A DNA stretch of 64,000 nt, taken from the NCBI GenBank assembly GCA_965287045.1, contig OZ336879.1:56048001-56112000 (forward strand), given 5' to 3'. Both the position numbers and the translations under genes were made by a program. Below are positions 1,198 to 63,830 of this stretch, piece by piece. Numbering within the stretch: position 1 is the stretch's first letter; each line of letters begins with the position of its first letter. Origin of the DNA: Carcharhinus amblyrhynchos (taxonomy: Eukaryota). The notes under the pieces were generated by a model. The model saw only the letters and a program-made list of their open reading frames with translations, made no database searches and was not told the origin of the DNA.

Positions 1198-1373
1198 TCT
1201 TTGCAGGAACAGAGATACATGGAGATTATGTGCCTAGGTCTTTGAAAGTGGCAGATTATAATGAGGGAGTGGTTCGCAAAACATATGGGATCTTGGGCTT
1301 TATAAATAGTTGTACTGAGTATAAAAACAGCAACGTTATGCTGTACCTCTGGTTAGACCACAATTAGAATATT

Positions 1374-1819
1374 GAGGGTGATTCTCCCAAAAAATTCATG
1401 TGAAAACTGGAATAAATCATACTAGTTTTTTCACCACTGCCTGACCTTCCGGTGGGGCCCAATTCCCATCCCTTCACTCCAGTGGAGTCAGACCGTTGGC
1501 TCCCTGCACGTGGGGAGCTATAGTAATCCCCGTTAGAGTGAAATATTCCCAGCTGGGGGGGGCGGGTAGAGGCTAGCAGGCCCAGAAATTTCAGTCCCAG
1601 GCCTGCTAATGCCATTTAAAACAGATGCAGATGAAGGGTTATATGTATAATACAGCTCCACATCTATTTCTGGTGTGGAGCTGACATGCCAGAAATCCGG
1701 TGCTGGGAGCCACACTCCAGGCCAGACATCCAGCACGGATCGTGCTAATCCAGTGCCACTAAACCTGCTGGCCTGCTGTACTGATTTTTTTAGCGCAGCA
1801 GAAAGGGAGAGTTGCCCCC
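1374..1819. mobile_element. Non-autonomous DNA transposon (MITE), PIF/Harbinger-like
   Basis: Imperfect 15-bp TIRs gagggtgattctccc / gggagagttgccccc; 3-bp TSD att (1371-1373, 1820-1822); removal restores the CR1 sequence. Confidence 0.65.
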
Positions 1820-4943: not shown

Positions 4944-5257
4944 TACTAGGGGGCACAGCCTCAAGATAAAGGGGGGGCGGTTTAGAACAGAGTTGAGGAG
5001 GAACTTCTTCACTCAAAGGGTGGTGAATCTCTGGAATTCTCTGCCCGTTGAAGTGGTGGAGGCTGCCTCGCTAAATGTTTTTAAGACGCGGGTTGATGGG
5101 TTTTTGATAAGCGAGGGGATTAAGTGTTATGGGGAGAGGGCAGGAATGTGGAACTGAGACATGACAGATCAGCCATGATCTTAATGAATGGCGGGGCAGG
5201 ATCGAAGAGCTAGATGGCCTACTCCTGCTCCTATTTCTTATGTTCTTATGTTCTTAT
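4944..5257 (+). mobile_element. CR1/HER1-type LINE 3' end
   Basis: Encodes TRGHSLKIKGGRFRTELRRNFFTQRVVNLWNSLP (CR1 ORF2 C-terminus); ends in (ttcttatg)n. Confidence 0.9.
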
Positions 5258-6010
5258 ATTTCGAGAAGGAACAGGCAAGGTGGATAAAGGGGAAACTGTA
5301 GAGCTGGTGGACTTGGATTTCAAAAGGCATGTGACAAGTTGACGCAAGATACTTCACAAGAAATGAGCATCTGATGTAGGAGGGAACTTATGATCATGGA
5401 TAACTGGTTACCTAACAGAAAGGAGACAGTAAAAATAGGTAGGATTCTTTCGGAGCAGCAAGCTCTAAGTTGTGGAATATCACAGAGATCAGTGTTAGGT
5501 CCTCAACCATTTACAATCAATATCAATGACTAGAATGAAGGGGCTGAGCATATGGTAGTTAAATTTGTTAATAACACCAAGATAGGTAGGAAAGTAACAA
5601 AGCAGAAAATGCTGGAGAAGCTCAGCTGGTCTGACAGCTTCTGTGGAGAGCCAATGTTTCGAGTCAGGATGATCCTTTTTGTTTTGTTATAGATTGCAGC
5701 ATCTGCAGTATTTTGCTTCTAATTTAGGTGGGAAAGTAAGTGGTCAATTAGAGGTAGAGAGTCTGCAAATGGAAGTAGACAGGTTAGGTGAATGGGCAAA
5801 AAAAAATAAGATGGAGTATGAAGTGGAAAAATGTGAACTTTCTCACTTTGCTAGGAAGAGTAGAAAAACAGTGTATTATTTAAATGGAGAAAAATTTGCA
5901 GAACTTCTTAGTAGAGAGGGATCTGATTGTCCTAGTACATGACTCTCAAAGAATTAGTATGCATGTACGGTAGTTAATTAGGAAGGCAAATGGAATGTTG
6001 CTATTTATTG
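5258..6010 (+). mobile_element. Degenerate CR1 RT fragment
   Basis: VDKGE..V.LDF.K..DK-like segment; ORF remnant SLQMEVDRLGEWAK...VEKCELSHF. Confidence 0.75.
5598..5724. mobile_element. Penelope-type terminal repeat insertion (family B), inverted two-piece structure
   Basis: Minus piece (cagaaaatgctggag...ctgtggagag...tttcgagtc) joined to plus terminal piece (cagcatctgcagtattttgcttc); TSD taggt(a/g)ggaaagtaa at 5583-5597 and 5725-5739. Confidence 0.7.
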
Positions 6011-9000: not shown

Positions 9001-9662
9001 CAAACAGATTGATTATCAAATGTAAATCATTCTAATACATCTCTGGCAAGCAGCAAGAGTGGGAAAGTTGCCCTGTCAGACATCTGCAGAGGTAATGGAA
9101 AACCACTGCAGCGCCTTGCCAAGCATTACCATGGATCAATGTCCTGTCGGGGCATAGTATCTGAAGAAAAAGAGAGACAGAGAGAGAGAGAAATTTATTC
9201 TCATACATTTACCCCAAATTAAACTCAACGTCACACACACTCAGTCTCACTCCTGCACTCAGACACACCAAGACTGGATAAAAATAAAGGTCATGCACTT
9301 CTATAGGTTCCAATTGTCTCAGTCTCTGATGATCTTTGGAGTCCCATGTGGCAGGCCTGTGGTCTTTTAAATGGATTTGATGATTTGAAATTTGAGTCAC
9401 AGTCTTGTAAGGTGAAAGTTTCACAGCAGATTGCGAGATTTCTTTCAGCGGCACTTCCACATGGTTGGTTTATAGGTGAACATTAAATTGGAACAGATAC
9501 ATACTCCAGCTGTCTGATGCTCTGCAGCTTGTGTCTGAGTCTGGTTCACAGAATGGCTGAATTGATGCTTCTAATGACTTTGGTAGAACAGCCTATGCAC
9601 AGCTCCAAACTGATCTTTTAAACAAACCATGAAAACCTATCTGTCTCCATGTAGTTTTTCAT

Positions 9663-9968
9663 AAAGTTTAAATTATTAGTCACAAGTAGGCTTACATTAA
9701 CACTGTAATGAAGTTACTGTGAAAATCCCCTCATCACCACACTCCAGCACCTGTTCGGGTACACTGAGGGAGAATTTAGCATGGCCAATGCACCTAATCA
9801 GCACATCTTTTGGACTGTGGGAGGAAACCAGAGCACTCGGAGGAAACCCACGCAGACACAGGGTGTACGTGCAAACTCCACACAGACAGTGACCCAAGCC
9901 GGGAATCAAATCCAGATCCCTGGTGCTGTGAGGCAGCAGTGCTAACCACTCATGCTTCTGTGCCACCC
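9663..9968 (-). mobile_element. V-SINE with alternative (tail-B) 3' end
   Basis: HE1-like head and core; 3' end ggggattttcacagtaacttcatt...aagcctacttgtgactaataa. Confidence 0.9.
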
Positions 9969-12829: not shown

Positions 12830-14192
12830 CCTGAGATGTAGAAGTCACTGGCAAGGTCAGCATTTATTTGAGTTGCATTTGAGAAAACAATGGTGAGTTG
12901 CCTTCTTTTTGAACCACTGAAGACCATACAAAGAATAAAGAAAAGTACTGCACAGGAACAGGCCCTTCAAGCCCATGCCAATCATGATTTGTTAACTAAA
13001 CTAAAAAAACCTTTTGCCCTAACTCGGTCCTTATCCTGCTATTCCCTTCCTATTTATGTACCTATCCAGATGTCTTGTAAATGTTGCTAATGTGTCTGCT
13101 TCCACACCTCCTCTGGCAGCGCATTCCAGGCACCCACCACGCCCCCGACACATCTCCCTTAAACTTTCCCCCTTCAGGCACATTAAAGACACTCCCACAA
13201 TATAGTAATATAGAAAGTTTCAGGATTTTAACTCAGTGATGATGAAGCAATGGAATGGTGTGTGATTTGGAGGTCAACCAGATAACAGTCACATGCATGA
13301 ACTGCCCTTGTCTGCCAAGGGTAGTGGAAGTTGTGGATTTGGGCAGTGTTGCCAATAAGACTGTAACAATTTACTGCAGAGCATCTTTTATATAGTACAC
13401 TCTTCAACCAGTGCTGGAAGGAGTGGATGAATGTGGAACAAGTGGACTATTTTTGGTTGATGTGAAACTCGTAATGGTGTTGCAGCTGCTCCCATCAAGG
13501 GGAATAGAGACTGTTTCAACGACTAACTTGTATTGTTTTGACGGTGGTGAGTCTTTGGGAAACCTGGAGGTGAGTCACTCATCATGGAATAACCAGCTTT
13601 GATCTTCTCCACTCACATTTATGTCAGAGTGATCTAAAGCAGGCTTTCCTTGGTTGATTTTATGGATCTGAAGACACATTTAAAAAAAATTATGTGATGT
13701 GGCATGGCTGGCTAGGCCAGCATTTATTGTTCATCCCTAGTTATCCTTCAGAAGTTGGTGGTGAGCTGCCTTCTTGAACCGCTGCAATCTATGAAATGTA
13801 CGCACACCCACAGCGCTGTTGGGCATGGAATTCCAGGAATTTGACCCAGAAACCATGAAGGATCGTTGATATATTTCCAAGTCAGGATGGTGAGTGATTT
13901 GGAAGGGAACCTTAAGGTGGTGGTGTTCCCAGGTAACTGCTGCCCTTCCAGATGATACAGATAATGGGTTTGGAAGGTGCTGCTTAGGAATCTTAGTGAG
14001 CTCTTGCAGTGCATTTTGTAGATGGTACACACTGCTGCTACTGTTCATCGGTGGTGAAGGGAGTAGATGTTTGTAGAAGGGGTAGCAATCAAGCTAAATG
14101 GTGTCAAGCTTCTTGTCTATTGTTGGAGCTGCACACGTCCAGACAAGTGGAGAGTACTCAACTGCACTACTGACTTGTGCCTTGTAGATGGT
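12830..14192 (-). mobile_element. Two 3' fragments of a CR1/L2-group LINE (family also at 24880-27090), with a CR1 3' end nested at ~12930-13175
   Basis: Diagnostic antisense tail ggctaggccagcatttattg..catccctag..ggtgagctgccttcttgaaccgctgc; ORF remnant SWNSMPNSAVG..LQRFKKAAHHQLLK. Confidence 0.75.
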
Positions 14193-17500: not shown

Positions 17501-17852
17501 GTTCTCAACTAAGATGTAATACAAGGAGATATATCGTATGAAATTGCTATTTCATCAGAAACCAGAAGAATGATTTTTGCCCTTTCCTGATCTGGTTAGG
17601 AAATGAATATTTTCCCCACCTTCTTGATACACTACAATTGTTCGGGCAATTTGCAAAACTGACATGACTATTAATCTTAAAACAAAAAAAAATCACATTT
17701 ATTTGTGGAAAACTATGGAACTGTTTTTAGAGTCCTTGGACGTGCACTTAAACTCAGGAGTCACACAAGTATTATTTGGCATAGTTACCTTTTTATGGCA
17801 ATTCAATGAGAATTGCCAGGGTTGAGAAATGAAATTCTTCTCTTATGGTTAA

Positions 17853-18146
17853 AATTTATTAATTAGTGTCTCAAGTAGGCTTACAGTAATACTGCAATGA
17901 AGTTACTATGAAAATCCATTAGTTGCCACATTCCGCCACATACTGATGGAGGATTTAGCATGGCCAATTCACCTAATCAGCATGTCATTTGGATTGTGGG
18001 AGGAAACCAGGGTACCCAGAGGAAATCCACACAGACATGGGGAGAACGTGCGGACTATGCACAGACAGTGACCCAACAAGGAATTGAACCCTGGGTCCCT
18101 AGTGCTGTGAGGCAGCAGTGCTAACCATTGTGCCAGTGTGCCACCT
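17853..18146 (-). mobile_element. V-SINE, tail-B subfamily
   Basis: caagtaggcttacagtaatactgcaatgaagttact...gtgctgtgaggcagcagtgctaacc. Confidence 0.88.
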
Positions 18147-21343: not shown

Positions 21344-21455
21344 ATGTGGACATGCCAGCGTCGGGTGATGAAGGGGCAAACCCCGAAAGCTTGTGAGTTT
21401 GCTATCAGATAAATTGGTTGGACTTTAACCTGGTGTTGTGAGACTTCTTACTGTG
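21344..21455. mobile_element. Solo Penelope pLTR (family A, related to 48999-52797), inverted two-piece structure with hammerhead remnant
   Basis: Minus terminal piece gatgtggacatgccagcgtcgg plus plus-strand TGATGA-A-GGGG-caaa-CCCC-GAAA-GCTT-gtga...ggtgttgtgagacttcttactgtg; TSD aatgaaacaag at 21333-21343 and 21457-21467. Confidence 0.8.
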
Positions 21456-22077
21456 AAATGAAACAAGTACATGCAGTGGAATCCCAATACCGTACATGCA
21501 GTAGATAAAGTTAATCAACTATGTTTACAATCACTGCCTGTCTGTAGCAGCAATATAAATGGGCTGTGGGAACGTGGAAGTATCAAGCGCCTCCTAGCAT
21601 TTGTCAATATTCAAACAACTGATGTGGGAATTCAACTTAAATATTATAAAATTAAATTCCTGTTGAATTTTAACATTGTAACTTTGCCCCACTTCTGGCT
21701 GTGTTTACAGCTCAAAACCATGCATAAGAGCTACCAATTCAGCATTCGTACTTAAACTGATTGTTTGGGAAATGGGAATACATGTTAGTTGGGGACTGAG
21801 CAGTGAGTATCTTTATGTACTCATATTGTCAGATTGAACTAGAGCCTCGGGAGAAATTAACACAATGAATAGAATCTTCCAGTCCCACAAGCAATGCGAA
21901 GTGTGGTGGGTGACAAAACATCAACAAATTAAGTTCCCTCCAGCGGGAAATTAGAACCTTCAGTTTTACAATTGTAAATCAATCATGTGCACCTGAGTAG
22001 CTTCACTTCTCCCACAACTTTGAGGTCAGTGGATGCTGCTTTCATCTTCTTGGGGACCACTCATAACTTCATTCTTA

Positions 22078-22400
22078 GGGTAGCAAGGTGGCACAATAGT
22101 TAGAACTGCTGCTTCATAGCACCAGGGACCTGGATTCGATTCCAGCCTTGAGTGACAGTCTGTGTGGAATTTGCACATTCTTCCCATGTCTCTATGCTCC
22201 AATTTCCTTCCACAGCCCAAAGATGTGCAGGTTAGGTGGACTGGCCATGCTAAATTGTCCCTTAGTGTCCCAAGAGGGATGAGTGGGGTAAATAGGTGGG
22301 GTTATAGGAATAGGGCCTGGGTAAGATGCTCTGTCGGAAAGTAGGTACAGATTTGATGGGCTGAATGGTTTTCATCTGCACTGCAGAGATTCTATGATTC
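22078..22400 (+). mobile_element. HE1/V-SINE with CR1-type tail
   Basis: Head ggtggcacaatagttagaactgctgc; tail tctgcactgcagagattctatgattc. Confidence 0.88.
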
Positions 22401-23825: not shown

Positions 23826-24041
23826 GAGGTAAGTTTTTCACTCAGAGGGTGGTGGGTGAGTGGAATCAGCTGCTGTCAGTGGTGGTAGAGGCAAACTTGC
23901 TGGGGTCCTTTAAGAGACTTCTGGATGAGTACATGGGATTTAATGGGATTGAGGGTTATAGATAGGCCTGGTAGGTATGGATATGATCGGCACAACTTGT
24001 GGGCCGAAGGGCCTGTTTGTGCTGTAGTGTTCTATGTTCTA
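23826..24041 (+). mobile_element. CR1 3' end
   Basis: ttttcactcagagggtggtggg...gggccgaagggcctgtttgtgctgtagtgttctatgttcta. Confidence 0.85.
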
Positions 24042-28790: not shown

Positions 28791-31037
28791 CGGGGTGGGA
28801 GACATTAAAAAAAATGGACAGGCTTCCCTCTGGAGTCTTGCAAACCCTGACTTGAACACAATTTTATGGTGGGGCTGGCAGAACTTCAGATGGGAAGCCC
28901 ACCCATGCCTCTAAAAAGGTCTTTCAGTGGCCACTTAATGACCTCGTAAGATCCTTTCCACCCCCCAGCCCCAATTTTCAGACTGGCAGACGCCTGATGT
29001 CTAAGGGTGGGAAACAGAAAAAAGCTCCTGCCCTCAATCTCATGCAGGAAGGTGGCGGGCTGGGGTGAATTTACAGCAGGGTCTTCTGCTGGTGCCTGCC
29101 ATGGTAGGCTGGAAAACCTGCCAGTGGCTGGTGTGAACCTTGTTTGCATCCCATTAAAATGAAGCAGATGAAGACTGACCCGCTCATGCCAGGTTCTCTA
29201 TGATGCCAGTGGGAAAACAAGCCCGCATGAAACATGTTCAGAACAATGTGACATGCAGATGTTGGGTTTTCTCTGAACAATGCCTGGGGCTGCCACTGGA
29301 ATTTAGGATGGAGGTTATCCGTAACCCTGGAACCTGGAACACCACAACAGTAGGTTGGGGAGCACCTGCAGGTGGGCCTTCCAGATTAGGGCCAGCACTC
29401 TCTGACCTCACCCACAGCTGGGATTCTCCTTTCCCGTTGCAGTGAACAGAGATTTGACTAAGCACCAAATTCTCCATTGTCACCCATAGAGGTGGCAGAT
29501 AGGAACAGCTGAAGAATTCTGGCTTGGGTGTCCTGGAAGGGAAGGTCCATCTTCCAGCCTCAGGTGTTCTTGGAGATCCCTCTTTGTTCTTAGGAGGTCC
29601 ATCTTCCATCTCAGAGTGCTCCCAGGGACCTTTTTTTCATTTTCAAGATGTCTACCTTTTTTCTTAAATAGGGGGTCAGTGGTGTTAGACTCCTCTCCAA
29701 TATGGCACCCAGATATGATGGCGGCGGACTGCACAACATCCAGACCTGTCCCACCACTGCATGGAGTGTAAACACTCGGGTACATAATTAATAGTTTTGG
29801 GACCTGAAGATTTGATGTTTTTTCCTACTGGCCTCTGCAGCGGGAAGAACTCCGCATTCATGCCGTGGCACAAAATGTGAGAATTCTGTTATGAAAAGTC
29901 CCCACTGTTCCAGATTTATTAATTGAACTTAAATTGGGATTTGAACCTATATCCCTTAAGCCTTTGGATTACTAATCCTGTGACATTAAAACTGCACTCC
30001 TGTCCTCCCTTTCACATTAGAAAAATCCCTATTTACACAAAGACTAATGGAGGTGAAGTAGCAACAGGTCCTACCAAGCCTTTAATTAAAATAAACAGGA
30101 TCGCGATACAATTAAAGCACCAAAATGTACTGATTAGCTTTCATGATGTGTAAATTTAATGATTGAATTTCCTGGAATTGTATAACATTATATTAGATTT
30201 AGCTTGTTGATTCCCATAAGGACACGTTTCCCCACTGTCCTATAATCATTAGTAGCTCTGACAATAATTCGTAGTCCAGCAGCAGCTTAGACAGACAAGT
30301 AAGCATGCTGTGTCAGAGGCCAGCTTCAGAAGCTATTAGTATGTGCGTGTTTGCCATAATAAGTGGATGTTAAAGGTACTTGTACTGGAAAGAGTAGGGG
30401 GAAATTGTGAATACCTACCAGCTTTTACGTTTTGAATTATTTGCATTTTAACACTTAAAATGTAATAACATTTTTAGATGGGGCATTGGGCAAATATATT
30501 ATCTTTTCACTCACCTCACTCAGTCTTGTACAAGTAGAATAAATTGCAGCCTTCATTTGGTTCTTTGGGTGTGTTTATTGTTATAAAATTGTAGCTTTTG
30601 TTGTTGATTGGTCAGACAGTTGCGCTTGTGCATTCGGCTTACACTGTGTTCGGCTCACATTGTGCATGTGAGGTTTCTCCCAACGCTGGCATCATGAGCG
30701 TTCACCCACAGCCAGTGTTAGTACAGGTCGCACCTGCATGCAGTGACTTATTCACTCAGCTGCTTCTCCAGCTCTGGTATCAGTTTGCCAGTCACTGTGC
30801 TGCCATTTCCCAATGCCAGCAACTCACAGAGCCACCCCACACCTATCCATTGCCAATCTACTCCCCCTGTCGTCTCTTGCTCACCCTTTTTCCCACATCC
30901 TCACGCACCTGTCTTCTGCACTGTGTGCCATGCTGTGCTCTGCCTTCCCACTGTTGTCAGCCATGGTCTATCAGACTGTATCTTGATTGTCCTCTGGACT
31001 TCAACACCTCTGTCTCTAACCTGGCCGACTCTGGATT

Positions 31038-31336
31038 AAAGTTTACTTATTAGTCACAAATAGGCTTACATTAACACTGCAATGAAGTTACTGTGAAAAT
31101 CCCTTACTCGCCACACTCCGGCGCCTGTTCGGGTATACTGAGAGAGAATTTAGCATGCCCAATGCATCCAATCAGCACGTCTTTTGGACTGGGGAGGAAA
31201 CTGGAACATCTGGAAGAAACCCACATTGACACGTGGAGAATATGCAAACTCCACACAGTGACCCAAGGTGGGAATCAAACTCGGGTCCCTGGCACTCTGA
31301 GGCAGCAGTGCTAACCACTGTGCCACCATGTCACCC
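31038..31336 (-). mobile_element. V-SINE, tail-B subfamily
   Basis: Full head, core and tail, collinear with 9663-9968. Confidence 0.9.
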
Positions 31337-31389
31337 AAATCATGGGCTTTGAATTAAAAATCCAATTTCATGCAGCAGGCCTAGACTAC

Positions 31390-32451
31390 TGTTGGGATAT
31401 CTTTCAAAACTATGGGTATTTTTAAATAAAAAAAGACATTGCATTATCACTTATATGCTGACTTGGAGATGTTTTTAAAGAAGGTTATAAATTCACCTTG
31501 GACTGGGAGTAAGCCTGTTTTCTCCTGAGAAATCACCTGACCTGCATAGCACTTGAGGATGATTTGTTTGTTTGTATTGAACTGCAATCACTTTAATTCA
31601 AAACCGAAAAGCAAAGGCTCTGAGTTACTGGAGATCACCTGGCAGAAGCAGCCTTTAAGTTTTGAATCTTTTGGTTATTCTCCTCTATGGCAAAGTCTGG
31701 TTGGTGAGAGCTTCCAACTGTCCACCAGGACTAGCGGCTTATCTTGATACAAGGGAACTCCGGATCAACAGAATCAAGACTCTGCAAATTTTATCCTTTA
31801 TTTTATTATCCTCTCAAACACATCTCTACAGTGAGACTCTATCTTCTTGTCCTGTTTCCCTGTGTGTTTCTGTCTGTCTGTGTGTGTCCCAGCAAGAGTT
31901 TTTTAGATAGATAGTTATGCTTCCAAACTACAATTTTGTGTTAATCAGTACTTGCAACTTGTTGAAAATGAATTTTGTTTTATAATAAACTAATAATTTT
32001 GTTCTTTACAGAAAGAAGCCCGGTTAAAGTCTCTTTTATTCTGTTTACCAGAACCATTCTGGTGAGAAATTAAACTTTTAAGATAATGGTAATGCCTGTT
32101 TAGGACTGCTTAGCATTGCTGCCTCACAGTGCCAGGGACCCTGTTTTAATTCCCAGCTTGAATGATTGTGTGGAGTTTGTGCATTCTCCCTGTGTCTGTG
32201 TGGGTTTCCTCTGAGTGCTCTGGTTTCCTCTCACAGTTCAAAGATGTGCGGGTTAGGTGGATTGGTCATGCTAAATTGCCCCTTAGTGTCAAGGGATATC
32301 TAGGGTAAATGCATGGGGTTATGGGGCTAGGGCCTGAATGAGATTATGGTCGGTGCAGACCCAATGGACCGAATGGCCTTCTTCTGCACTGTGGGGTTCT
32401 ATGATTCTAGTGGGGCTAGATAGTAATGTTACAACCATCCTGGTTGTAACA
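31390..32451 (+). mobile_element. Possible solo LTR with SINE insertion
   Basis: Starts TGTTGG, ends GTAACA, with internal AATAAA (31984) and GT-rich tract; no clean TSD. Confidence 0.35.
32107..32409 (+). mobile_element. HE1/V-SINE with CR1-type tail
   Basis: tagcattgctgcctcacagtgccagggacc...ggccttcttctgcactgtggggttctatgattcta. Confidence 0.88.
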
Positions 32452-32809: not shown

Positions 32810-33170
32810 ATGTGGTACAGTGGTTAGCTCTGCTGTCTTCACAGCGCCAGGGACCGGGGTTCAATTCCGAGCTTGGGTAACTGTCTGAGTGGAGATTGCA
32901 CATTCTCCCTGTGCCTGCATGGGTTCTCTCCGGTTGTTCCAGTTTCCTCCCGCAGCCCAAAAATGTGCAGGTTAGGTGGATTAGCTGTGCTAAATTGCCT
33001 TTTCGTATCCCAAGATGTGTCAATTAGGTGGATTAGCCATGTTAAGTGCACCAAGTTATGGGGATAGGGCAGAGGGGTTGGACCTGGGTGCGATGCTCTT
33101 TCGGAGAGTTGGTGCAGGCTCCATGGGCCAAATGGCCACCTGTACTGGAGGGATTCTACAATTTTATGGT
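32810..33170 (+). mobile_element. HE1/V-SINE
   Basis: gtggtacagtggttagc...gggttcaattcc; duplicated ttaggtggattagc segment. Confidence 0.85.
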
Positions 33171-33627: not shown

Positions 33628-33926
33628 CTTTTTCCCAGGGTAGAGGAATTGAAAGCTAGAGGGCATAGGTTTAAGGTGAGAGGGGAAAGATTTAAAAGGG
33701 ACCCGAGAGACAACTTGTTCACGCAGAGGATGGTGCGTATGTGGAATGAGTTGCCAGAGAAAGTGGTTGAAGCAGGTTCAATAGTATCATTTCAAAAGCA
33801 TTTGGATAAGCACGTGGGTGGGAAAGGATTAGAGGGATTTGGGACTAACTGGGAGGGCACATCGCTGGCATGGACCATTTGGGCCGAAGGGCCTGCTTCC
33901 ATGCTGTATTGCTTTATGACTCTATG
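33628..33926 (+). mobile_element. CR1 3' end
   Basis: ARGHRFKVRGERFKRDPRDNLFTQRMVRMWNELPEKVVEAGS; tail gggccgaagggcctgcttccatgctgta. Confidence 0.9.
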
Positions 33927-39503: not shown

Positions 39504-39811
39504 TGATCACTTAAAGAGCAGTCACATGATTTTGATAGTGATGTCATTCGAGTGTTTCAGAGGCTCCTGCTTTTAGTTTAAGTTTGTACTCTGAACAGAC
39601 AAGAGCACCTGGAGTAAATCTGTTGTTGTTAGTTTGAATCTTCATGAGCAAGCCACATCTTTCTCTTCTTGTGTAAAGCCTACAATCCTGAACGTGGTTA
39701 GGATATTACAGGCATAGGCTGGGATGCCAATCAGCCACCCACTCCATGGAGGTTGGTGATCAATCTAAATCATTCAGGTTTCAATTAGGCATGATGTTGT
39801 ATGATGTAGAG

Positions 39812-40124
39812 TGGCACAGTAGCACAGTGGTTAGCACTGCTGCCTCATAGTGCCAGGGAACCGGGTTCAATTCCTGACTTGGAGTTTGCACATTCTCCCC
39901 GTGTCCATGTGGAGTTTGCACATTCTCCCTGTGTCTGCATGGATTTCCTCTGGGTGCTCCGTTTTCCTCCCATTATCCAAAGACGTGGTGGTTAGGTGGA
40001 TTGGCTATGGTAAACTCTCCCTCCATCTACCCGAACAGGTGCCCGAGTAAGGTAGCCGGGGATTTTCACAGTAACTTCACTGAAGCCTTAATATAAGCCT
40101 ACTTGTGACTAATAAATAAACTTT
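39812..40124 (+). mobile_element. V-SINE, tail-B subfamily, with a 30-bp internal tandem duplication
   Basis: tggagtttgcacattctccc(c/t)gtgtc repeated at 39880 and 39910; tail ttttcacagta...cctacttgtgactaataaataaacttt. Confidence 0.9.
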
Positions 40125-40233
40125 AATTTTATTTTTGGGGAGCAGTCTGCTATTTTGCAGGTGGTGGAGCAGCCCCCTACTTCATGGGGAGGTCATCAGC
40201 TTAATAGAAACAGCCTTCCTGTGGCACTCCAAG

Positions 40234-40338
40234 GTAAAAAGTCTGACAACACCAGGTTTTAGTCCAACCTATTTATTTGATAATATACTCGCAAGCTTTC
40301 GAGGGGACTGCCTCTTCGTCAGGTGAATGGAGAGTTCT
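40234..40338 (-). mobile_element. Solo Penelope pLTR (family A) with intact hammerhead core
   Basis: Minus strand tcac-CTGACGA-A-GAGG-cagtcc-CCTC-GAAA-GCTT-gcga, then tcaaataaataggttggactaaaacctggtgttgtcagactttttac. Confidence 0.85.
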
Positions 40339-47473: not shown

Positions 47474-48439
47474 CAGAATCCAGACTTGAATCATTTGGGA
47501 TAATACTGAGTTTGAGTGGTATTGCAAAATGTGTCAAGAGACAGAGTCGATAGAATGTGAGTCAATAGACCATTTTACATCTCGCATGGTTTTTATCTCC
47601 ATTGAAGACAATGCAAATAAATCATGGAACCAATGTAAAATGGATTGCCAATTTGATAACCTATTTTCACAAAGATGCAAAATTAAAAGTACCCCTGCAG
47701 ATTTTTACAGTACAAAGAAAACCACTCAGCTCAGTCATTTCAGTGCTGGCTATTTACCAGAATGACACAAAACTAATACCACTTTCCTATTTTCTCTGTA
47801 TAGTCATGTTTCATTACCTGTTTGAAATACTTTGCAAACTTTCCCTTACAAGATGCCATTGTCTCTGCAAGAACTAATCTCTGTGAAAAGCATTACATGC
47901 TCCAATAACTCTGTGAATAGAGATTTCTCCAAACTCTCTCCTCATTCTCTTGGTGGTAATTTTAAATTAATAACTTGTCACTGTTGCCTCAATTGTCTGC
48001 CCCTTTTCAATCAAACAAATATCTATGCCATTTTATGAATCTTTATCAAATCTCCTCTCACTTTTCGATTGGAAATAATCCCATTAACTCAAGGCTCTCT
48101 TTAAAAATAAAATTTCTCATCCTGGCATTATCCTTCTGTGTACTTTTATTTGCTGTAATGCCCTTTTTTTTAGGTTTCAATATGGATCACCTCTCATTCT
48201 TCAAAACTCTGCAGAACACAAGCCCATTTTCTGCAATCTGAGACACACTGAACAACACAAGACTCTTTTTACAAAAACAAACTTCCTTCTTTACTCTTGT
48301 ATACTATGCCATTATTGATAAAACTTAAATTTCTATGGACTTTGCTGATGGCTTCATCTCCCTGCGTTGATATTTTGAAGGAATTGTGCACTTGAACTAT
48401 TTGGTCTCTGTTCATTCACTTTTTGGTGTCCACGAAGAA

Positions 48440-48998
48440 GAATCATATAAATTCACAGCACAGAAGGAGGCCATTTTTCTTCATTATGTCCACACACCGG
48501 TTGGCAAGGAGCCACTCTCCAGTTCTTGGTCCATGTAGGTTATTGCATTTCCAGTGCTTATCTAGCTACTTCTTATGAGGTTATTACCTTAACCACCTTT
48601 TTAGGCAGTGAGTTCCAGATTCTCATCACACTGAATGGAAGTACTTACCTCAAATCCCATCTAAATCTTAAATCCAAAAAACTTCTCAGCTGAGGGGAAT
48701 AGTGCCTTTCTATCCATTCTGTTCAAACCCTCATAATATATACACTTCCATTAGGTCTCCCCTCAGTTTCCTCTGTTCTGAAGAAAACAATACTCACATA
48801 TCCAATCCTTCCTCATAACTTAAATAAATTCTCCAGTTCAGACAACATGCTCATAAATCTTCATTTTAATCTCTCCAGTGCAATCATATCTTTCCTATAG
48901 CATAGAACTGCACACAATACTTCAGTTGTGGCCTAACCAGTGCTTTATATGGTTCCGGTATAATCTCCACATTCTCATATCTATGCCTTAGCTAATAA
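48440..48998 (-). mobile_element. CR1 3' portion, left part of the Penelope host
   Basis: cacagcacagaaggaggccatt, gagttccagattctcatcac, agaactgcacacaatacttcagttgtggcctaacc; continues collinearly at 52798. Confidence 0.8.
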
Positions 48999-49055
48999 AG
49001 TAAAATGTCTGACAACACCAGGTTTAAGTCCAACCGATTTATTTGATAGTACACA

Positions 49056-49089
49056 CACTAGCTTTCAGGGTTAGTCCCTTTGTCAGGTG
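49056..49089 (-). ncRNA. Minimal type I hammerhead ribozyme motif (core G8 mutated)
   Basis: cac-CTGACAA-AGGG-actaa-CCCT-GAAA-GCTA-gtg. Confidence 0.7.
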
Positions 49090-49288
49090 AATGGAGAGTT
49101 ATGGCCTCAGACAGAGCATATAAAGCACAGACAGTTTACAGATTACTGATTAGAATGCGAATCTTTACACCTAACCTGCTGTTCCAGTCCTGAAGTGGCT
49201 GACAATGTGAGTGAAAGAAGCACTGATGTGTATTGTCTCCAGACAGTACAGTAAGTGAGGTTTTGCAAACCCAGGCAAGTCACGGGGG

Positions 49289-51334
49289 TTACAGATAGTG
49301 CGACATGAACCCGAGATCCTTGTTGAGACCGTCCTCATGTGTGCAGAACTTGGCTATCAGTCTCTGCTCAGTGACTCTGCGCAGTCGTGTATCGTGAAGG
49401 CCGCCTTGGAGAACGCTTACCCGAAGGTCAGAGGCTGAACGCCCATGACCACTGAAGTGTTCGCCAACAGGAAGGGAACAGTCTTGCCTGGTGATTGTCG
49501 AGAGATGTTCATTCATCCATTATTGTAGCGTCTGCATGGTCTCCCCAACGTACCATGCTTCGGGACATCGTTTCTTGCAACGTATGAGGTAGACAACGTT
49601 GGCCGAGTTGCAAGAGTATTTACCGTGTACCTGGTGGATGGTATTCTCACGTGTGATGATGGTATCCGTGTCGATGATCCGGCATGTCTTGCAGAGGTTG
49701 CTGTGGCAGGGTTGTGTGGTATTGTGGTCACTGTTCTTCTGAAGGCTGGGTAGTTTGCTGCAAACAATGGTCTGTTTGAGGTTGTGTGGTTGTCTGAAGG
49801 CAAGAAGTGGGGGTGTGGGGATGGCCCTGGCGAGATGTTCGTCTTCATCAATGATATGTTGAAGACTCCAGAGAAGATGTCGTAGCTTCTCCGCTCTCGG
49901 GAAGTACTGGACGACGAAGGGTACTCTGTCCACCATGTCCCGTGTTTGTCTTCTGAGGAGATCGGTGCAGTTTTTTGCTGTGGCGCATCGGAACTGTCAA
50001 TCTATGAGTCGAGCGCCATATCCTGTTGTTATGAGGGTATCTTTCAGCGTCTGGAGGTGTCTGTCATGATCTTCCTCATCTGAGCAAATCCTGTGTATAC
50101 GGAGGGCTTGTCCATAGGGGATGGCTTCTTTAACATGTTTAGGGTGGAAGCTGGAGAAGTGGAGCATTGTGAGATTGTCTGTGGGCTTGCAGTACAGTGA
50201 GGTGCTGAGGTGACCGTCCTTAATGGAGATGTGTGTGTCCAAGAATGCAACTGATTCTGGAGAATTGTCCATGGTGAGTCTGATGGTGGGGTGGAACTTG
50301 TTGATGTCATCATATAGTTGTTTCAGTGATTGTTCACCATGAGGCCAAAGGAAGAAAATGTCATCGATGTATCTAGTGTATAGCATCGGTTGAAGATTCT
50401 GTGCGGTGAAGAAGTCTTGTTCGAACCTGTGCATGAAGATGTTGGCATATTGAGGTGTGAATTTGGTCCCCATGGCTGTTCCGTGTGTCTGGATGAAAAA
50501 CTGGTTGTTGAAGGTGAAGACATTGTGGTCCAGGATAAAGCGGATGAGTTGTAAAATTGCATCTGGAAACTGGCAGTTGTCGGCATTGAATACTGAGGCA
50601 GTCGCAGCAATGCCATCGTCGTGGGGGATGTTGGTGTAGAGCGCTGAGACATCCATTGTGATGAGGAGTGTCCCTGGTTCAACTGTTCCATGTGTGCTGA
50701 GTTTCTGTAGGAAGTCCGTAGTGTCGCTACAAAAGCTGGGGGTTCTTTGTACAGTGGGTTTCAGGATGCCCTCGACGTAGTCGGAAAGGTTCTCACACAG
50801 AGTCCCATTGTCTGATCTGATGGGACGGCCGGGTGTGTTTGCCTTGTGTATCTTTGGGAGGCAGTAGAGATCTCCAACGCGGGGAGTACGTGGAATGAGA
50901 GCATGGAGGGTGCTCTGAAGGTCCGGATCAAAGGTCTTGATCAGAGTGTTGAGTTGACGAGTGTGTTCTTTGGTCAGATCTGTGGGTAATTGTCTGTAGT
51001 GTTCCTCATTGTTTAGTTGTCGGTACACTTCTTTACAGTAATCCGTTCTGTTCAGCATGATGATGGCCCCTCCTTTGTCTGCTGGTTTGATGACAATGTT
51101 GCGATTGGTCTTGAGAGCGTGAATGGCGTTGCATTGTGCTTGGGTGATGTTCGGGGCTGTCTTGTGAGTGCGGTTGATGAATCTGGTGTTAACGTACCTC
51201 CTGATGGTTTGGGTGTACAAGTCCAGTCGAGGGCAGCGGCCTTCCGGAGGAGTCCAGTTGGATTCCTTCCTCTTAGGTTGCTGCACTGCGGATCTCTCTG
51301 TTGGCTGTTCTGGTTCATTGGCTGTCTCATTGAC
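49289..51334 (-). pseudogene. Penelope RT + GIY-YIG endonuclease ORF, 5'-truncated, two in-frame stops
   Basis: IKPADKG, LPKIHK, MDVSALYTNIP, GTAMG, RYIDDIF; C..LCKTC linker; NVVYLIRC..C...YVGET; ORFs 49997-51358, 49520-49936 and 49289-49516 are in one frame, separated by TGA and TAA. Confidence 0.92.
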
Positions 51335-52459
51335 TTCTTCACCGCACAGAATCTTCAACCGATGCTATACACTAGATACATCGATGACATTTTCTTCCTT
51401 TGGCCTCATGGTGAACAATCACTGAAACAACTATATGATGACATCAACAAGTTCCACCCCACCATCAGACTCACCATGGACTATTCCCCAGAATCAGTTG
51501 CATTCTTGGACACACGCATCTCCATTAAGGACGGTCACCTCAGCACCTCACTGTACCGCAAGCCCACAGACAATCTCACAATGCTCCACTTCTCCAGCTT
51601 CCACCCTAAACACGTTAAAGAAGCCATCCCCTGTGGACAAGCCCTCCGTATACACAGGATTTGCTCAGATGAGGAAGATCATGACAGACATCTCCAGACA
51701 CTGAAAGATACCCTCATAACAACAGGATATGGCGCTCGACTCATAGATTGACGGTTCCGATGTGCCACAGCGAAAAACCGCACCGATCTCCTCAGAAGAC
51801 AAACACGGGACATGGTGGACAGAGTACCCTTCGTCGTCCCGTACTTCCCGGGAGCGGAGAAGCTACGACATCTTCTCCGGAGTCTTCAACATATCATTGA
51901 TGAAGACGAACATCTCGCCAGGGCCATCCCCACACCCCCACTTCTTGCTTTCAGACAACCACACAACCTCAAACAGACCATTGTTCGCAGCAAACTACCC
52001 AGTCTTCAGGAGAACAGTGACCACAATACCACACAACCCTGCCACAGCAACCTCTGCAAGACATGCCGGATCATCGACATGGATACAATCATCACACGTG
52101 AGAATACCATCCACCAGGTACACGGTAAATACTCTTGCAACTCGGCCAACGTTGTCTACCTGATACGTTGCAAGAAAGGATGTTCCGAAGCATGGTACAT
52201 TGGGGAGACCATGCAGAAGCTACGACAACGGATGAATGAACGTCGCTCGACAATCACCAGGCAAGACTGTTCCCTTCCTGTTGGCGAACACTTCAGTGGT
52301 CATGGGCGTTCAGCCTCTGACCTTCGGGTAAGCGTTCTCCAAGGCGGCCTTCACGATACACGACTGCGCAGAGTCACTGAGCAGAGACTGATAGCCAAGT
52401 TCTGCACACATGAGGATGGTCTCAACAAGGATCTTGGGTTCATGTCGCACTATCTGTAA
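51332..52459 (+). pseudogene. Second copy of the Penelope ORF C-terminal half (RT YIDD, thumb, GIY-YIG), one in-frame TGA
   Basis: YTRYIDDIFFLW...GARLID*RFRC...VVYLIRCKKGCSEAWYIGET...VGEHFSGHG...GLNKDLG; the two ORFs are in frame across TGA 51749-51751. Confidence 0.92.
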
Positions 52460-52670
52460 CCCCCGTGACTTGCCTGGGTTTGCAAAACCTCACTTACTGT
52501 ACTGTCTGGAGACAATACACATCTCTTTAACCCGTGATCAGTGCTCCTTCCACTCACATTGTCAGCCACTTTAAGACTTGAACGGCAGGTTAGGTGTAAA
52601 GATTCGCATTCTAATCAGTAATCTGTAAACTGTGCTTTATATGCTCTGTCTGAGGCCAGAACTCTCCATT

Positions 52671-52704
52671 CACCTGACGAAGGGACTAACCCTGAAAGCT
52701 AGAG
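52671..52704 (+). ncRNA. Minimal type I hammerhead ribozyme motif (core intact)
   Basis: cac-CTGACGA-AGGG-actaa-CCCT-GAAA-GCTA-gag; AATAAA at 52717-52722. Confidence 0.8.
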
Positions 52705-52797
52705 TGTGTACTATCAAATAAATTGGTTGGACTTAAACCTGGTGTTGTCAGACTTTTTACTGTGTTTACCCCAGTCCAACGCCAGCATATCTACATC

Positions 52798-53960
52798 TTA
52801 GCTAATACAGGCATAAATTATCTGTGTGCTCTCTTGATCACTCTGTCTGCCTGTCTTGCCATCTTCAGGGATCTATGAGCATGTATTGCAAAGGTCCCTC
52901 TGTTTTTCTATACTTCTCACTATCTAATTGTTTATTGTGAGTGCTCTTGTCTTGTCAGCCTTCCCCAAAAGCGTGACCTCACATTTGTCCCGATTGAAGT
53001 TATTTGCTAGTGTTGCACCTACCTAACTAGTCCATTGATATTGAAATTTAAGAATTCAAGAATATAGGCAGAGAAGTAGGCAATTCAGCACATTGAGCCT
53101 TCAATATGATCTAACTGATCTTCATTGCAATGTGTTTTACCACTCTATCCTGTTATCCCTTGATGCCACTGGTGATTAGAAATCCAGCCATGTCTGCTTT
53201 AAACACACACAATGACTGAGCTTCTGCAACTCGCTGTAGCAGAGAATTCCAAGATTCACAACCCTCTGAGAGAGAAAAAAAAACTCCTCATCTTGGTCCT
53301 CAGTGGCCACCCTCTTTTCTGCGTCTTATATCTGCATCTAACCTATCCATCCCATTAAGTTTTTTAGGTTTCAATGTGGATCATCTCTCATTCTTCAAAA
53401 CTCTGGAGAACACAAGCCCATTTTCTGCAATCGCTCTTTATAGGTCAGTCCTGCCATCCTGGGAACGCATCTGGTGAATCTTCATTTCACTTTTTCTATT
53501 GCAATAATATCCTGCCCAAGGTAAGGGGGGTCATGCTTCCAGGTGAGGATCTGCCTCCTGGGGGATGGGGGGGGGGGGATCTGTCGAGGTTGGGGGTCTG
53601 CCTTCCAGGGGGATTTGCTTCCTGCGGAGTTGTCTGCCTTCCATGGGGGGAGGTGGGTCTTCTGAGGTGGCGGGCATGGGGGGGGATCCTCACTTCTGAG
53701 AGTAATTGCTTTCCAGTCCTCCTCCTCTACACTATTGGCCAGAAAGGATTGAATAGTGATGGTCAGAGCCTCTGTTATTTCTTCTTGTGTTTCCCTTAAG
53801 GCCAAGGATACAGTTCATCTAGGCCGGGGGATGTATCCATCTTCAAACATATTAAAACCGTTAATACTTCCTCCCTCACAATGTTAATTTAATCTAATAT
53901 TTCACACTCCTCCTCCCTGATTGTAATATTTGTATTTCTCCACTTGTGAAAACTAAACAC
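52798..53960 (-). mobile_element. CR1 fragments (right part of the Penelope host plus an additional CR1 3' piece)
   Basis: gccatcttcagggatctatg..., agagaattccaagattcacaaccctctg, catctaggccgggggatgtatcc. Confidence 0.7.
53522..53700 (+). repeat. G-rich degenerate minisatellite
   Basis: Repeated (ggg)atctgccttcc(a)gg-like units with long G runs. Confidence 0.6.
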
Positions 53961-55356
53961 AGGCTCAGGTTTTCATGTTTGAGGTGGGAAAGTGGAGTTG
54001 AGAACTTTTCCAAAGTCGCAGTCCCACCTCCAATCCACGACTGTCAGTTAGCCAGTAGGACTTTCATATAATGCAGATGGATATAGATGTGCAGGGGGCT
54101 GGTTCTCAGATGATCAGGTTAAAAGGCAACCTCTATTTGCAAAGAGATCACCTGGTTCTGCAGATCAGTGTGAGCCCATCCCCAACCCCACCACTACAGT
54201 ACTTCATAACCCCATACCCGCCACCCCTCTGCTCACCTCTCATGAACCTCCCTCCACCTTCCTAAATTCCTCATCCTACTTACCCTTTTCCTTCACCTGC
54301 TTACTCCTTGCAAATCCCTTACCACTCTGAATGCCACTCAATGCCACCAACCGCAGCACTTGTCCCTCCCCCCCCCATCCAGCCAGCCCACCGGCCCATG
54401 CAGCTAGCACCCACTCAAAATGGAACTCATAAGCCTTAAACAAATATCTGGAAGACTTTAAAAAACTCACAAACTTCACTTACAAACACCAATCCTGTAT
54501 CGAAGCTCATAGTTCTATTGAAATAACAAACATTGCTTGATGGCCACTTCTAAAATATTTTCTTCAGAATAATACCATTTATTCCTTGCCTTCAATTATC
54601 CTAATCTAAACTTTGTATCCCTTTTGTTTTAATTTTATTCCTTCTGACCATTCTTGTATATCTAATTCTGTTCTGATTGCTTTTAAAAGGTTTCTCCTGA
54701 TTTGAAAGCAATTGTCTCAATCAACTGACCACATTAACTATTTCATGTCATATCACTTATCAAGTAATGGAACATAACTGAGACCCATTCTTCAGTGCAT
54801 AATCACCAAGCATGTCCATATGTGAGTTTCTTCACAGATAACAAGTCACATCTGCACAATTGTCTGAATATTATACGTTCCATCTGATACTTGCTGGTGA
54901 GCTTGTCAAAAGATCATGGGAAGATTGGGTTCTGAAGATCTTTGCTTATGGTAGTGGCAATGTACATTAATGTACATTAATATCAGATTAATATATTCCA
55001 TTAAGCTGTGCCCTGATGATTTTTCCAATTTCTATTTGATGGTATAATTTTTTCTGTCTCTTCATTATTTTTTCACCTTCATTTAGTTATCATTCTATCT
55101 AAAGGAAATTTACTTTCCAATGCCACATCCTCATATTAAAGAAAAAATATTCCGCTGTGGTCGGAGAGGTCCATAGTAAAGTAGAAGTTCCTAGGTCCAT
55201 AGTAAAGAATCACCAACCTTTGAGTCACCTTGGTTCTCTGGCGCGACACAGGTTGATGACCACAGGTCTGCTCCTTGCAGCCCTGATTCATTTTGAAAAT
55301 TGGAATTTACTCCAGTTTTAGAATATTTTTGGGAGACTCCCACCCAATATATTTCA

Positions 55357-60914: not shown

Positions 60915-61260
60915 TTCGTGATGCTGGCCACGGCTACATTTATTGCCCATCTTTAATTGCCCCGAGTTGGAGCTGGTTGAACTTCTTTCAATTCTTTGAT
61001 AGGATATGGGCATCAAGCGGCCAGCAATTTTATTGCCCATTCCTAACTACCTTTAAAAAGGTGTTGAGCCTCCTTCATGAACCGCTGCAATGGGTGCAGA
61101 TACACGCACAGGGCTGTTAGACAGGGGGTTCCAGGATTTTGACTCAGTAGCAATGAAGGAACAGCAATATAGTCTCATATCAGGATGGTGTGTGGCTTGG
61201 AGGTACAACTTGCAAGTGATGGCATTCCCATGCATCTGCTGCCCTTGCCCTTCTAGGTCC
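60915..61260 (-). mobile_element. CR1/L2-group LINE 3' end(s)
   Basis: Two tttattgcccat tails; SKSWNPLSNS remnant. Confidence 0.7.
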
Positions 61261-62479: not shown

Positions 62480-63830
62480 GCTGCACTTCTTTTAACAGCT
62501 GAACAAATTGCTTCTCACTGGGGTTGAGATAATTGGCTTCCAACAACCACAGCTATCTTTATTTGTGCAAGCTATTATTCCAACCCACAGAGGGCTTTCC
62601 CCTGAATCTAATGATGCCAGACTTGATCAAATGCTGTCTTGAATACAAGGGTAAACACACTCCCACCTTATCTCTTGAGTTCGGCTCTTTTGTCCTTGGT
62701 GAGATGAAGACAGTAATGAGTACAAGAGCCAAGTGGACCAGACAGAAACCACAATGAGCATATTGAATAGGTGCAGTGAGATTGCACTCTCAGCAACATC
62801 TTCCATCATTTTTCTGATGATCAAAAGTAGACTGATGGGATGGCAATTGGTCAGATTGCATTTATCCAGAATAGAACATTAAAAAAACTCATTTGGGATA
62901 TGGGTATCACTGTTAGGCCAGCATTTATTGGTGAGCTGCCTCATGAATTGTTGCCGCCATTGAGGTGCAGGGTACAACCACAGTGCTGTTAGAGAGGGAG
63001 TTGAGGATTTTGACCCAGTGACGGTGAAGAAATGATGATTTATTTCAATATCAGAATGGTAGGTGACATGGAAGGGAACCTCCAGGTGGTGATGTTCCCT
63101 GGTATCTGCTGACTTTGTCCTTCTAGGTGGTAGTGGTCACGTGTTTGAATAGTGCTGCCTAAGGAGCCTTGGTGAGTTCCTCCAGTGTATCTTATAGATA
63201 GTACACACTGTTCCCATTATTTGTTGGTGGTAGAGGGATTAAATATTTGTGGAAAGGGTATCACTCAAGCAGGTTGCTTTTCCCTGACTGATGCTGAGCT
63301 TTTTGATAGTTGTTGTGCTTTGTCGAGTCAGGAGGTGAGTTAGTCAACACAGGATCCCTAGCTTGTAACCTGTATATAGCGAGTGCAGTTCAATTTCTGG
63401 GCTATGGTAAGCACCATAATGTTGACACTAGAGGATTCAGCGACCAAATGTCAGGGGACAATGGTGAGATCCTCTCTTGTTGGAGACTGTCATTGCCTGG
63501 CACTTACATGGTGTGAACATTACTTGCCACTTGTCTGCCCAAGCCTGGATATTGTCTAGGTCTTACCGCTTTTGGACGTGGGCAGCTCCAATATCTGAGG
63601 AATTATGAATGATGAAAACTTTGTGCAATCATCAGTGAACATCCATCTCCACTTCTAACCTTATGATAGAGGAAAGGTTATTAATAAAGGAAATGAAAAT
63701 GGTTGGGGCTAGGATACTATCTGAGTTATTCCTGCAGTGATGTCACGCAGCTGAAATGGTTGGTTTTCAACCACCACAACCATCTTTCTTTGTGCCAGGT
63801 ACAACTCCAACCAGCAGAGGGTTTCCCGGA
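62480..63830 (-). mobile_element. CR1/L2-group LINE fragments
   Basis: gacttgatcaaatgctgtcttga (IKAAFD), aggccagcatttattggtgagctgcc, tcatcagtgaacat (MFTDD), ggactagg..cctgcag (GVPQGS region). Confidence 0.7.

What the first reader, a model, noticed from the sequence alone, without database searches (positions are those of the whole stretch)
48987..52807. Young Penelope-like element forming a ~1.4-kb inverted repeat with a clear TSD
Seen: arms 48999-50416 and 51332-52761 are near-identical inverted copies (identity not computed; many differences are CpG-type), separated by a ~915-bp spacer holding the more N-terminal RT. Both 3' ends point outward. The host CR1 is interrupted with cttagctaata duplicated, extending to ttagctaata(a/c)ag. 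Inverted pLTRs are known for Penelope, but here the inverted arm spans ~2.3 kb of coding sequence and is longer than the arm carrying the terminus. Inference: a single event with two cDNAs primed from opposite target strands and joined at a gac microjunction; read-through transcription would give long dsRNA (siRNA or ADAR substrate). The Cys-rich RT-EN linker suggests the Neptune group.
Basis: partly seen in the sequence, partly recalled or inferred. Interest (0 to 1): 0.7.

Follow-up and report, generated by a model that had tools for sequence, protein, structure and literature searches.

The report
Ordinary inverted Penelope-like retrotransposon insertion
This is a dead jumping gene of a known family, inserted as two back-to-back partial copies in the layout typical of that family; it is real but ordinary, apart from a weak hint that its two mirror-image halves later copied from each other.

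Summary
The inverted repeat is real: arms 48999-50416 and 51332-52761 differ at 44 of 1414 columns (96.9% identical) plus two deletions, around a 915-bp spacer, inside an exact 11-bp direct repeat that interrupts an older LINE. It is two 5'-truncated, head-to-head copies (2334 and 1466 bp) of a highly repeated Penelope-like element, probably Neptune-type. The right copy carries a 36-nt extension that the left lacks: the PLE 'tail'. The arms share rare variants, which favours one event. Two details fail: the central overlap is 1 nt, not 'gac'; and the copy is not very recent, since both copies have stops and the tail-flank junction appears in two other organisms (flanks about 2% and 4% divergent). 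Best mechanism: both target strands primed cDNA, one at each of the two known start sites, and the cDNAs were end-joined. One weak extra: the arms are more alike than that age predicts, hinting at gene conversion. The central and left junctions were not confirmed by reads.

The parts
48987..48997 (+). Left copy of target-site duplication (exact 11 bp; to 49000 with one mismatch against the right copy)
   Evidence: the left letter (A at 48998) matches the state in the old LINE copy at 1225-1400
48999..51332 (-). Longer 5'-truncated PLE copy (2334 bp), ends at the tail-less 3' site; lacks about the first 200 codons of the ORF
   Evidence: tblastn of an 881-aa homologue covers it from about residue 200 to the end; family continues beyond 51332 with other letters
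48999..50416 (-). Left arm of the inverted repeat; private 16-bp deletion near 49227
50417..51331 (-). 915-bp spacer = N-terminal part of RT present only in the left copy
   Evidence: (RVT_1 E 9e-11)
49289..51331 (-). ORF remnant of left copy: RT, CX4CxxC linker, GIY-YIG EN; in-frame stops at 49997-49999 and 49520-49522
51332..51332 (.). Head-to-head junction, 1-nt overlap, no palindrome
   Evidence: (table 7)
51332..52797 (+). Shorter 5'-truncated PLE copy (1466 bp) with tail; starts at about residue 507 of 881
51332..52459 (+). ORF remnant of right copy: YIDD at 51377-51388, in-frame stop 51749-51751 (same position as in the left copy), CX4CxxC linker 52040-52066, GIY-YIG core with two Cys 52157-52204
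52246..52416 (+). Longest run identical between arms (171 bp; left counterpart 49332-49502), holding the three rarest arm-shared variants: possible conversion tract
   Evidence: p 0.016-0.059
52671..52705 (+). Minimal hammerhead-like motif (CTGACGA, 4-bp stem II, GAAA, palindromic AGCT); core changed to CTGACAA in the left copy (49081)
   Evidence: motif type as in PMC4209133; no Rfam match
52762..52797 (+). 36-nt PLE 'tail', present on the right copy only
   Evidence: family 3' ends at 52797 (117-157 loose ends per run); the stretch 52735-52800 folds into a stem-loop, z -2.6
52797..52807 (+). Right copy of target-site duplication (first C shared with the tail)
48587..48986 (-). Downstream part of the interrupted old LINE (CR1-like by recalled motifs)
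52808..52885 (-). Upstream part of the interrupted old LINE

Best explanation
One retrotransposition event of an EN+ Penelope-like element (Neptune type). The GIY-YIG endonuclease made staggered nicks 10-14 bp apart in an old LINE. Each target strand then primed reverse transcription on element RNA (two RNA molecules, or two units of one tandem transcript): the bottom strand from the outer start site, giving the 1466-bp copy with the tail, the top strand from the inner start site 36 nt upstream, giving the 2334-bp tail-less copy. Both cDNAs stopped early and were joined head to head almost bluntly (1-nt overlap); gap filling made the TSD. The copies have since decayed neutrally. Shown: anatomy, TSD, tail, domain content, junction overlap, shared variants. 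Inferred: the two-primer route, by analogy with in vitro work on a Poseidon element. It has no demonstrated function for the host.
For: TSD flanks the whole 3.8-kb unit, none at the centre. Left end stops at the same point as two unrelated old family fragments in the window (21366-21455, 40234-40338), right end at the family's main 3' end. Of the 16 right-arm differences from the family majority that one search listed (264 further rows of that table were not shown), 5 are shared with the left arm, two of them carried by at most 0.6% of family depth in all 4 runs; 10 are private to the right arm and 1 lies in the left arm's deletion. PMC11167929: a PLE protein nicks and extends both strands, starts RT at two sites that bound the tail, and is predicted to be a dimer. 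PMC8557442 and PMC3846280: inverted truncated copy + tail at one end + TSD is typical. Neither copy contains the other (left has 915 extra 5' bases, right has the tail), so neither is a plain copy of the other.
Against: No read or contig spanning the central or the left junction was displayed. The in vitro data are for the Poseidon clade and stop before second-strand synthesis. Shared variants could come from later gene conversion and then say nothing about the template. No Neptune-labelled reference was available for a tree.
Confidence: 0.7

Rival explanations
1. Fold-back or self-priming: one cDNA (or an antisense template) primed on itself and copied back, making a hairpin intermediate that the endonuclease resolved, leaving the tail on one end only.
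For: Proposed for head-to-head PLE structures in PMC3846280; PMC8557442 ascribes the tail to EN-mediated resolution of an intermediate. Explains shared variants and the shared stop codon without a second RNA.
Against: No palindrome at this junction, a 915-bp loop, and only 1 nt of complementarity between the putative primer end and its landing site. PMC11167929 later tied the tail to two RT start sites.
Confidence: 0.2
2. Two independent insertions, the second landing at the 5' end of the first in opposite orientation.
For: The family is very highly repeated (summed contig depth 1.6-3.9 million at the 3' end against 6.5-23.5 in the next flank bin); PLE endonucleases can cut their own sequence (PMC11167929); arms differ by 3.1%.
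Against: One TSD around the whole unit and none around either copy; rare variants shared by both arms; tail/no-tail geometry is the canonical single-event signature.
Confidence: 0.05
3. Assembly artefact (fold-back chimera or mis-join of family copies).
For: Central and left junctions were not among the displayed contigs; inverted PLE units are known to trouble assemblies (PMC8557442).
Against: A fold-back read would give identical arms; these differ at 44 sites with private deletions. The TSD and the LINE continuity would not arise from a mis-join. The right junction is matched by contigs in 4 of 4 runs laid.
Confidence: 0.04

Closest known systems
EN+ Penelope-like elements, inverted arrangement with tail (PMC8557442 Fig. 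2; Adineta vaga Pen2a/Pen2, PMC3846280)
   Same: Head-to-head inverted 5'-truncated copy, tail on one end only (36 nt here; 30-40 reported), TSD of about 10 bp (8-10 reported in A. vaga), minimal hammerhead in the terminal repeat.
   Different: Arms are 1.4 kb and include RT C-terminus and EN, whereas the A. vaga examples read had arms of about 180-220 bp (one 304-bp internal piece); no direct pLTR; neither copy is full length; no palindrome at the centre.
Neptune clade PLEs
   Same: C-terminal GIY-YIG with two internal Cys and a His pair; CX2-5CxxC linker between RT and EN; closest named relatives are sea-turtle proteins at 46-48% identity.
   Different: No tree with labelled references; target is an old LINE, not the microsatellites for which the Neptune linker was hypothesised to select (PMC8557442).
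PAc (Poseidon of Anolis carolinensis, PMC11167929)
   Same: Two 3' end points separated by a tail, near a stem-loop; A/T-rich target.
   Different: Different clade (no linker in Penelope/Poseidon); mechanism shown there in vitro, only inferred here.
Drosophila virilis Penelope copies with long inverted repeats (PMC3681739)
   Same: Rearranged copies with long inverted repeats inside the element body, reported as the source of siRNA.
   Different: No transcript or small-RNA evidence for this locus.
L1 twin priming (recalled; no paper on it read here)
   Same: Both target strands act as primers, giving an inverted segment inside one TSD.
   Different: In L1 the two cDNAs copy successive parts of one RNA with little overlap; here the same 1.4 kb is copied twice from two fixed 3' start sites.

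Membership tests
EN+ Penelope-like element | Single ORF with RT followed by C-terminal GIY-YIG endonuclease | tested here: met
   RVT_1 E 9e-11; 52-63% identity over RT and EN to 881/882-aa homologues in one frame; listed homologues carry PF00078 and many PF01541. Pfam itself gave no GIY-YIG hit on the window's EN.
EN+ Penelope-like element | CCHH motif, two Cys inside the GIY-YIG core | tested here: met
   YLIRCKKGCSEAWYIG and downstream HFSGH in the right copy, same pattern in the left; a like pattern in 102 of 120 listed homologues
EN+ Penelope-like element | 30-40 bp tail at one end | tested here: met
   36 nt, 52762-52797
EN+ Penelope-like element | Target-site duplication | tested here: met
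   11 bp exact; empty site not seen
EN+ Penelope-like element | Minimal hammerhead ribozyme motif in the terminal repeat | tested here: inconclusive
   Core pattern found at 52674 and 40322, but the same loose scan also gave 2 other hits in the window; folding not better than shuffles; no Rfam match; GAAAGCT invariant in 4 of 4 ends
EN+ Penelope-like element | Partial tandem forming direct pLTRs (full-length active form) | tested here: not met
   Both copies are 5'-truncated; no direct repeat of the element end inside the unit. Truncated and inverted forms are accepted variants (PMC8557442), so this marks the copy as non-autonomous, not as a non-member.
Neptune clade | CX2-5CxxC linker between RT and EN (Neptune and Nematis; absent in Penelope/Poseidon) | tested here: met
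   CHSNLCKTC in both copies; definition from PMC8557442 passages
Neptune clade | RT phylogeny groups with Neptune references | not testable with these tools
   No clade-labelled PLE proteins among the 120 listed hits; vertebrate species sampled in 10.64898/2026.07.22.740005 held only Neptune and Poseidon
Penelope/Poseidon clade | No Zn-finger linker | tested here: not met
   Linker present
CR1 LINE (host of the insertion) | RT C-terminal motifs and 3' end of CR1 | tested here: inconclusive
   Flanks are homologous to other decayed repeats in the window and continuous across the site; the Atlas gave unnamed clusters only; the name rests on recalled motifs

The most novel reading that the evidence does not exclude
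A 1.4-kb-arm, about 97%-identical inverted repeat has persisted in a vertebrate lineage across speciation events while its arms were partly homogenised by arm-to-arm gene conversion; and because this family is extremely abundant, its long head-to-head units form a natural data set that can decide between double target priming and self-priming as the origin of inverted PLE insertions.
Probability: 0.3. Interest if true: 0.45.

Novelty: new member of a known kind. Interest (0 to 1): 0.2.

Why it matters
As a single locus it matters little: it is a dead copy in a published arrangement. It is a clean worked example in which each end matches one of the two PLE reverse-transcription start sites, consistent with priming on both strands, a step not yet shown in vivo. 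If arm-to-arm conversion is real, dating such insertions from arm divergence would underestimate their age. The shared tail-flank junction is usable as a presence/absence phylogenetic marker.

Tried and rejected
No whole genome is held, so the frequency of long-armed units in the family could not be counted. Rfam: 0 matches at E<=10 in 48500-53300. PDB sequence search: 2 matches at E 0.66-0.67 (group II intron-like RT), uninformative. Host exons: the 140 longest of 142 stop-to-stop frames of >=75 aa outside the element gave 3 Pfam rows, all below their cut-offs; short exons would be missed, so genic context is unknown. No RNA holder listed among 23 runs, which says nothing on expression. 'gac' microhomology rejected. 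Fold-back annealing at the junction: 1 nt only. A-to-I editing of the templates: among the rows displayed, sense-strand A>G against T>C was 5:1 in the right arm and 1:2 in the spacer; too few and too filtered to support it. Extra CpG loss in the spacer relative to the arms: none (o/e 0.61 against 0.58 and 0.65; window 0.26). Clustering of arm differences on its own: not significant (longest run p 0.15; non-CpG p 0.14). Total arm divergence against organism B flank divergence: not significant (44/1414 against 39/913, p 0.17); non-CpG arm divergence against organism A flanks: p 0.53. Earlier findings: two look-ups returned nothing. Paper searches that found no description of conversion between PLE arms or of 'twin priming' applied to PLEs, judged from listings only: (Penelope/Neptune in sharks) gave nothing useful.

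Full report
OBSERVATION. The arms align over 1414 columns with 44 mismatches (96.9%): 33 transitions (20 at CpG) and 11 transversions, plus 16 bp missing from the left arm and 4 bp missing from the right. The spacer is 915 bp. An exact 11-bp direct repeat flanks the unit (48987-48997, 52797-52807); about 5e-4 such matches are expected by chance in 40x40 positions. It extends to 14 bp with one mismatch. An old repeat copy at 1225-1400 aligns to the right flank and then to the left flank, so the interrupted LINE is continuous across the site, and that copy has the left-hand letter at the mismatch. The label CR1 is from recalled motifs; the Atlas returned unnamed clusters only.

WHAT IT IS. The unit is two 5'-truncated copies of one element, head to head. 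The left copy (48999-51332, minus, 2334 bp) matches an 881-aa homologue from about residue 200 to the end at 60%; the right copy (51332-52797, plus, 1466 bp) from residue 507 at 63%. RT is detected by Pfam (E 9e-11). Both copies show the CX4CxxC linker, the GIY-YIG core with two Cys and the His pair; 94 and 102 of 120 listed homologues carry the linker and the CC..HH pattern. By the definitions in PMC8557442 (passages) this is an EN+ PLE outside Penelope/Poseidon; the linker is shared by Neptune and Nematis, and a 2026 preprint (10.64898/2026.07.22.740005, passages) found only Neptune and Poseidon in its vertebrates, so Neptune is likely but untested by tree. The host is probably a non-mammalian vertebrate (inference from CpG depletion and turtle relatives at 46-48%). 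Both copies are dead: one in-frame stop at the same position in both, a second in the left. A minimal hammerhead-like motif of the kind described in PMC4209133 (parts 1-2 of 4 read) lies at about 52671-52705, with its core changed in the left copy; this rests on pattern and context, not on folding energy or Rfam.

THE ENDS. Contigs of four runs were laid on 50417-54000 (4 of the 23 runs listed; three studies; X1 may be the source of the assembly). The family is very highly repeated with a strong 3' bias (summed depth is not a copy number). Its 3' end falls at 52797 in all four runs, so the right copy has a 36-nt extension (52762-52797) beyond the left copy's end. The two other old fragments of the family in the window stop at the left copy's end point. 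[quoted passage not shown] Since the tail may be on either end, a longer tail-less copy is not an anomaly. What I did not find described is arms this long without any direct pLTR, but PMC3681739 (passages) reports Penelope copies with long inverted repeats giving siRNA, and the primary papers it cites were not read.

THE CENTRE. Family contigs follow the left copy through 51332 and then diverge (X1, X5), so only one G is shared between the copies; 'gac' is not a microhomology. There is no palindrome, and the left cDNA end has 1 nt of complementarity to its would-be fold-back site. No contig spanning this junction or the left junction was displayed; the tool showed only a small part of what it laid.

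ONE EVENT. Of 16 displayed positions where the right arm departs from the family majority, 5 are shared with the left arm (51710, 52308, 52357, 52365, 52705), 10 are private and 1 falls in the left deletion (264 further rows of that table were hidden). Two shared variants are carried by at most 0.6% of family depth. The family has both the 16-bp and the 4-bp segments, so each arm lost one privately. With a single TSD around the whole unit, two independent insertions are unlikely, and non-identical arms argue against a fold-back artefact.

AGE. Contigs joining tail to right flank were seen in 4 of 4 runs: X1 52772-53280 (0 differences), X2 from 52768 (3), X5, organism A, from 52770 (7 in 404), X6, organism B, from 52776 (21 in 505). 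They hold only 22-30 element letters, below the tool's 31-letter rule for bridging, as expected where a contig meets a high-copy repeat. An empty allele would add 13, 17, 15 and 10 mismatches over those letters, more than X1, X2 and X5 have in total; for X6 the count matches its background (18 in 408) and an empty allele is disfavoured but not excluded. So the insertion predates a split of about 2% and probably one of about 4%. It is young only relative to its surroundings (CpG o/e about 0.6 against 0.26).

MECHANISM. PMC11167929 (parts 1-2 of 4 read) shows that a purified Poseidon protein nicks and extends both target strands, starts RT at two sites that bound the tail, near a stem-loop and without homology to the target, and is predicted to dimerise. 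The locus fits this directly: one strand primed at the outer site, the other at the inner site, two truncated cDNAs end-joined. The stretch around the tail folds into a stem-loop (z -2.6, 1 of 200 shuffles as good) with the inner end point in its loop. The joining and the use of two RNAs are inference (0.7). Self-priming with endonuclease resolution (PMC3846280) remains possible (0.2).

THE ONE LOOSE END. Non-CpG arm divergence is 20 of 1292 (1.55%, CI 0.9-2.4%), below the 4.2-4.3% flank divergence from organism B (p 1e-4 to 2e-3), though not below that from organism A (p 0.53), and total arm divergence is not significantly lower (p 0.17). The three rarest shared variants all lie in the longest identical run, 52246-52416 (p 0.016 or 0.059 by null; noticed after the fact). 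Arm-to-arm gene conversion would explain both; unequal lineage rates, low-depth contigs, an empty allele in X6 or a rare source copy would too. I put it at about 0.3. Conversion between inverted repeats is known in general (recalled); listings showed nothing on PLE arms.

TRANSCRIPTION. No evidence for or against read-through, dsRNA, siRNA or editing was obtained.

LIMITS. No host genome was held; no supplements were read, and those of PMC8557442 and PMC11167929 may hold examples of equally long arms or clade-labelled relatives.

VERDICT. Real, single-event, canonical inverted PLE insertion; new member of a known kind; interest 0.2.

Noticed in passing
window 21366-21455 (+) and 40234-40338 (-): Two short, older 3' fragments of the same PLE group (82-86% identical), both ending at the tail-less site; the 40-kb one keeps a hammerhead core with a different stem II.
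   Followed up: partly
window 48166-48238 and 53360-53432: 73-bp direct repeat at 96% identity on either side of the insertion, within decayed LINE-like sequence; much more alike than other old repeat pairs in the window; unexplained.
   Followed up: no
window 48976-48986 vs 52786-52796: The last letters of the tail resemble the target just left of the TSD (catatct shared, then 1 of 4 matching); chance or limited pairing during integration; not tested.
   Followed up: no
family contigs beyond 52797 (table 7): Loose ends after the tail start with ATGAC in all 4 runs (overall agreement only 0.38), which may be the ORF start of the next tandem unit; one full-length homologue begins M-T.
   Followed up: no
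family contigs (tables 5 and 5c): Other family copies show joints from the tail-less end (52760, 52762) to internal sites and an opposite-strand joint 52432-52553, i.e. partial tandems and inversions occur elsewhere; 388 joints were not shown.
   Followed up: no
window 9662-9967, 17849-18145, 31035-31343, 39801-40127 and 2254-2567, 22077-22400, 32104-32409, 32812-33015: Several ~300-bp SINE-like repeat copies at 70-84% identity to each other.
   Followed up: no
window 1225-1400, 4964-5259, 13715-14094, 23861-23956, 33742-33837, 61019-61258, 62929-63315: Many decayed repeat fragments, several of them homologous to the LINE-like flanks of the insertion; no Pfam match above cut-off among 140 long frames of the window.
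   Followed up: partly
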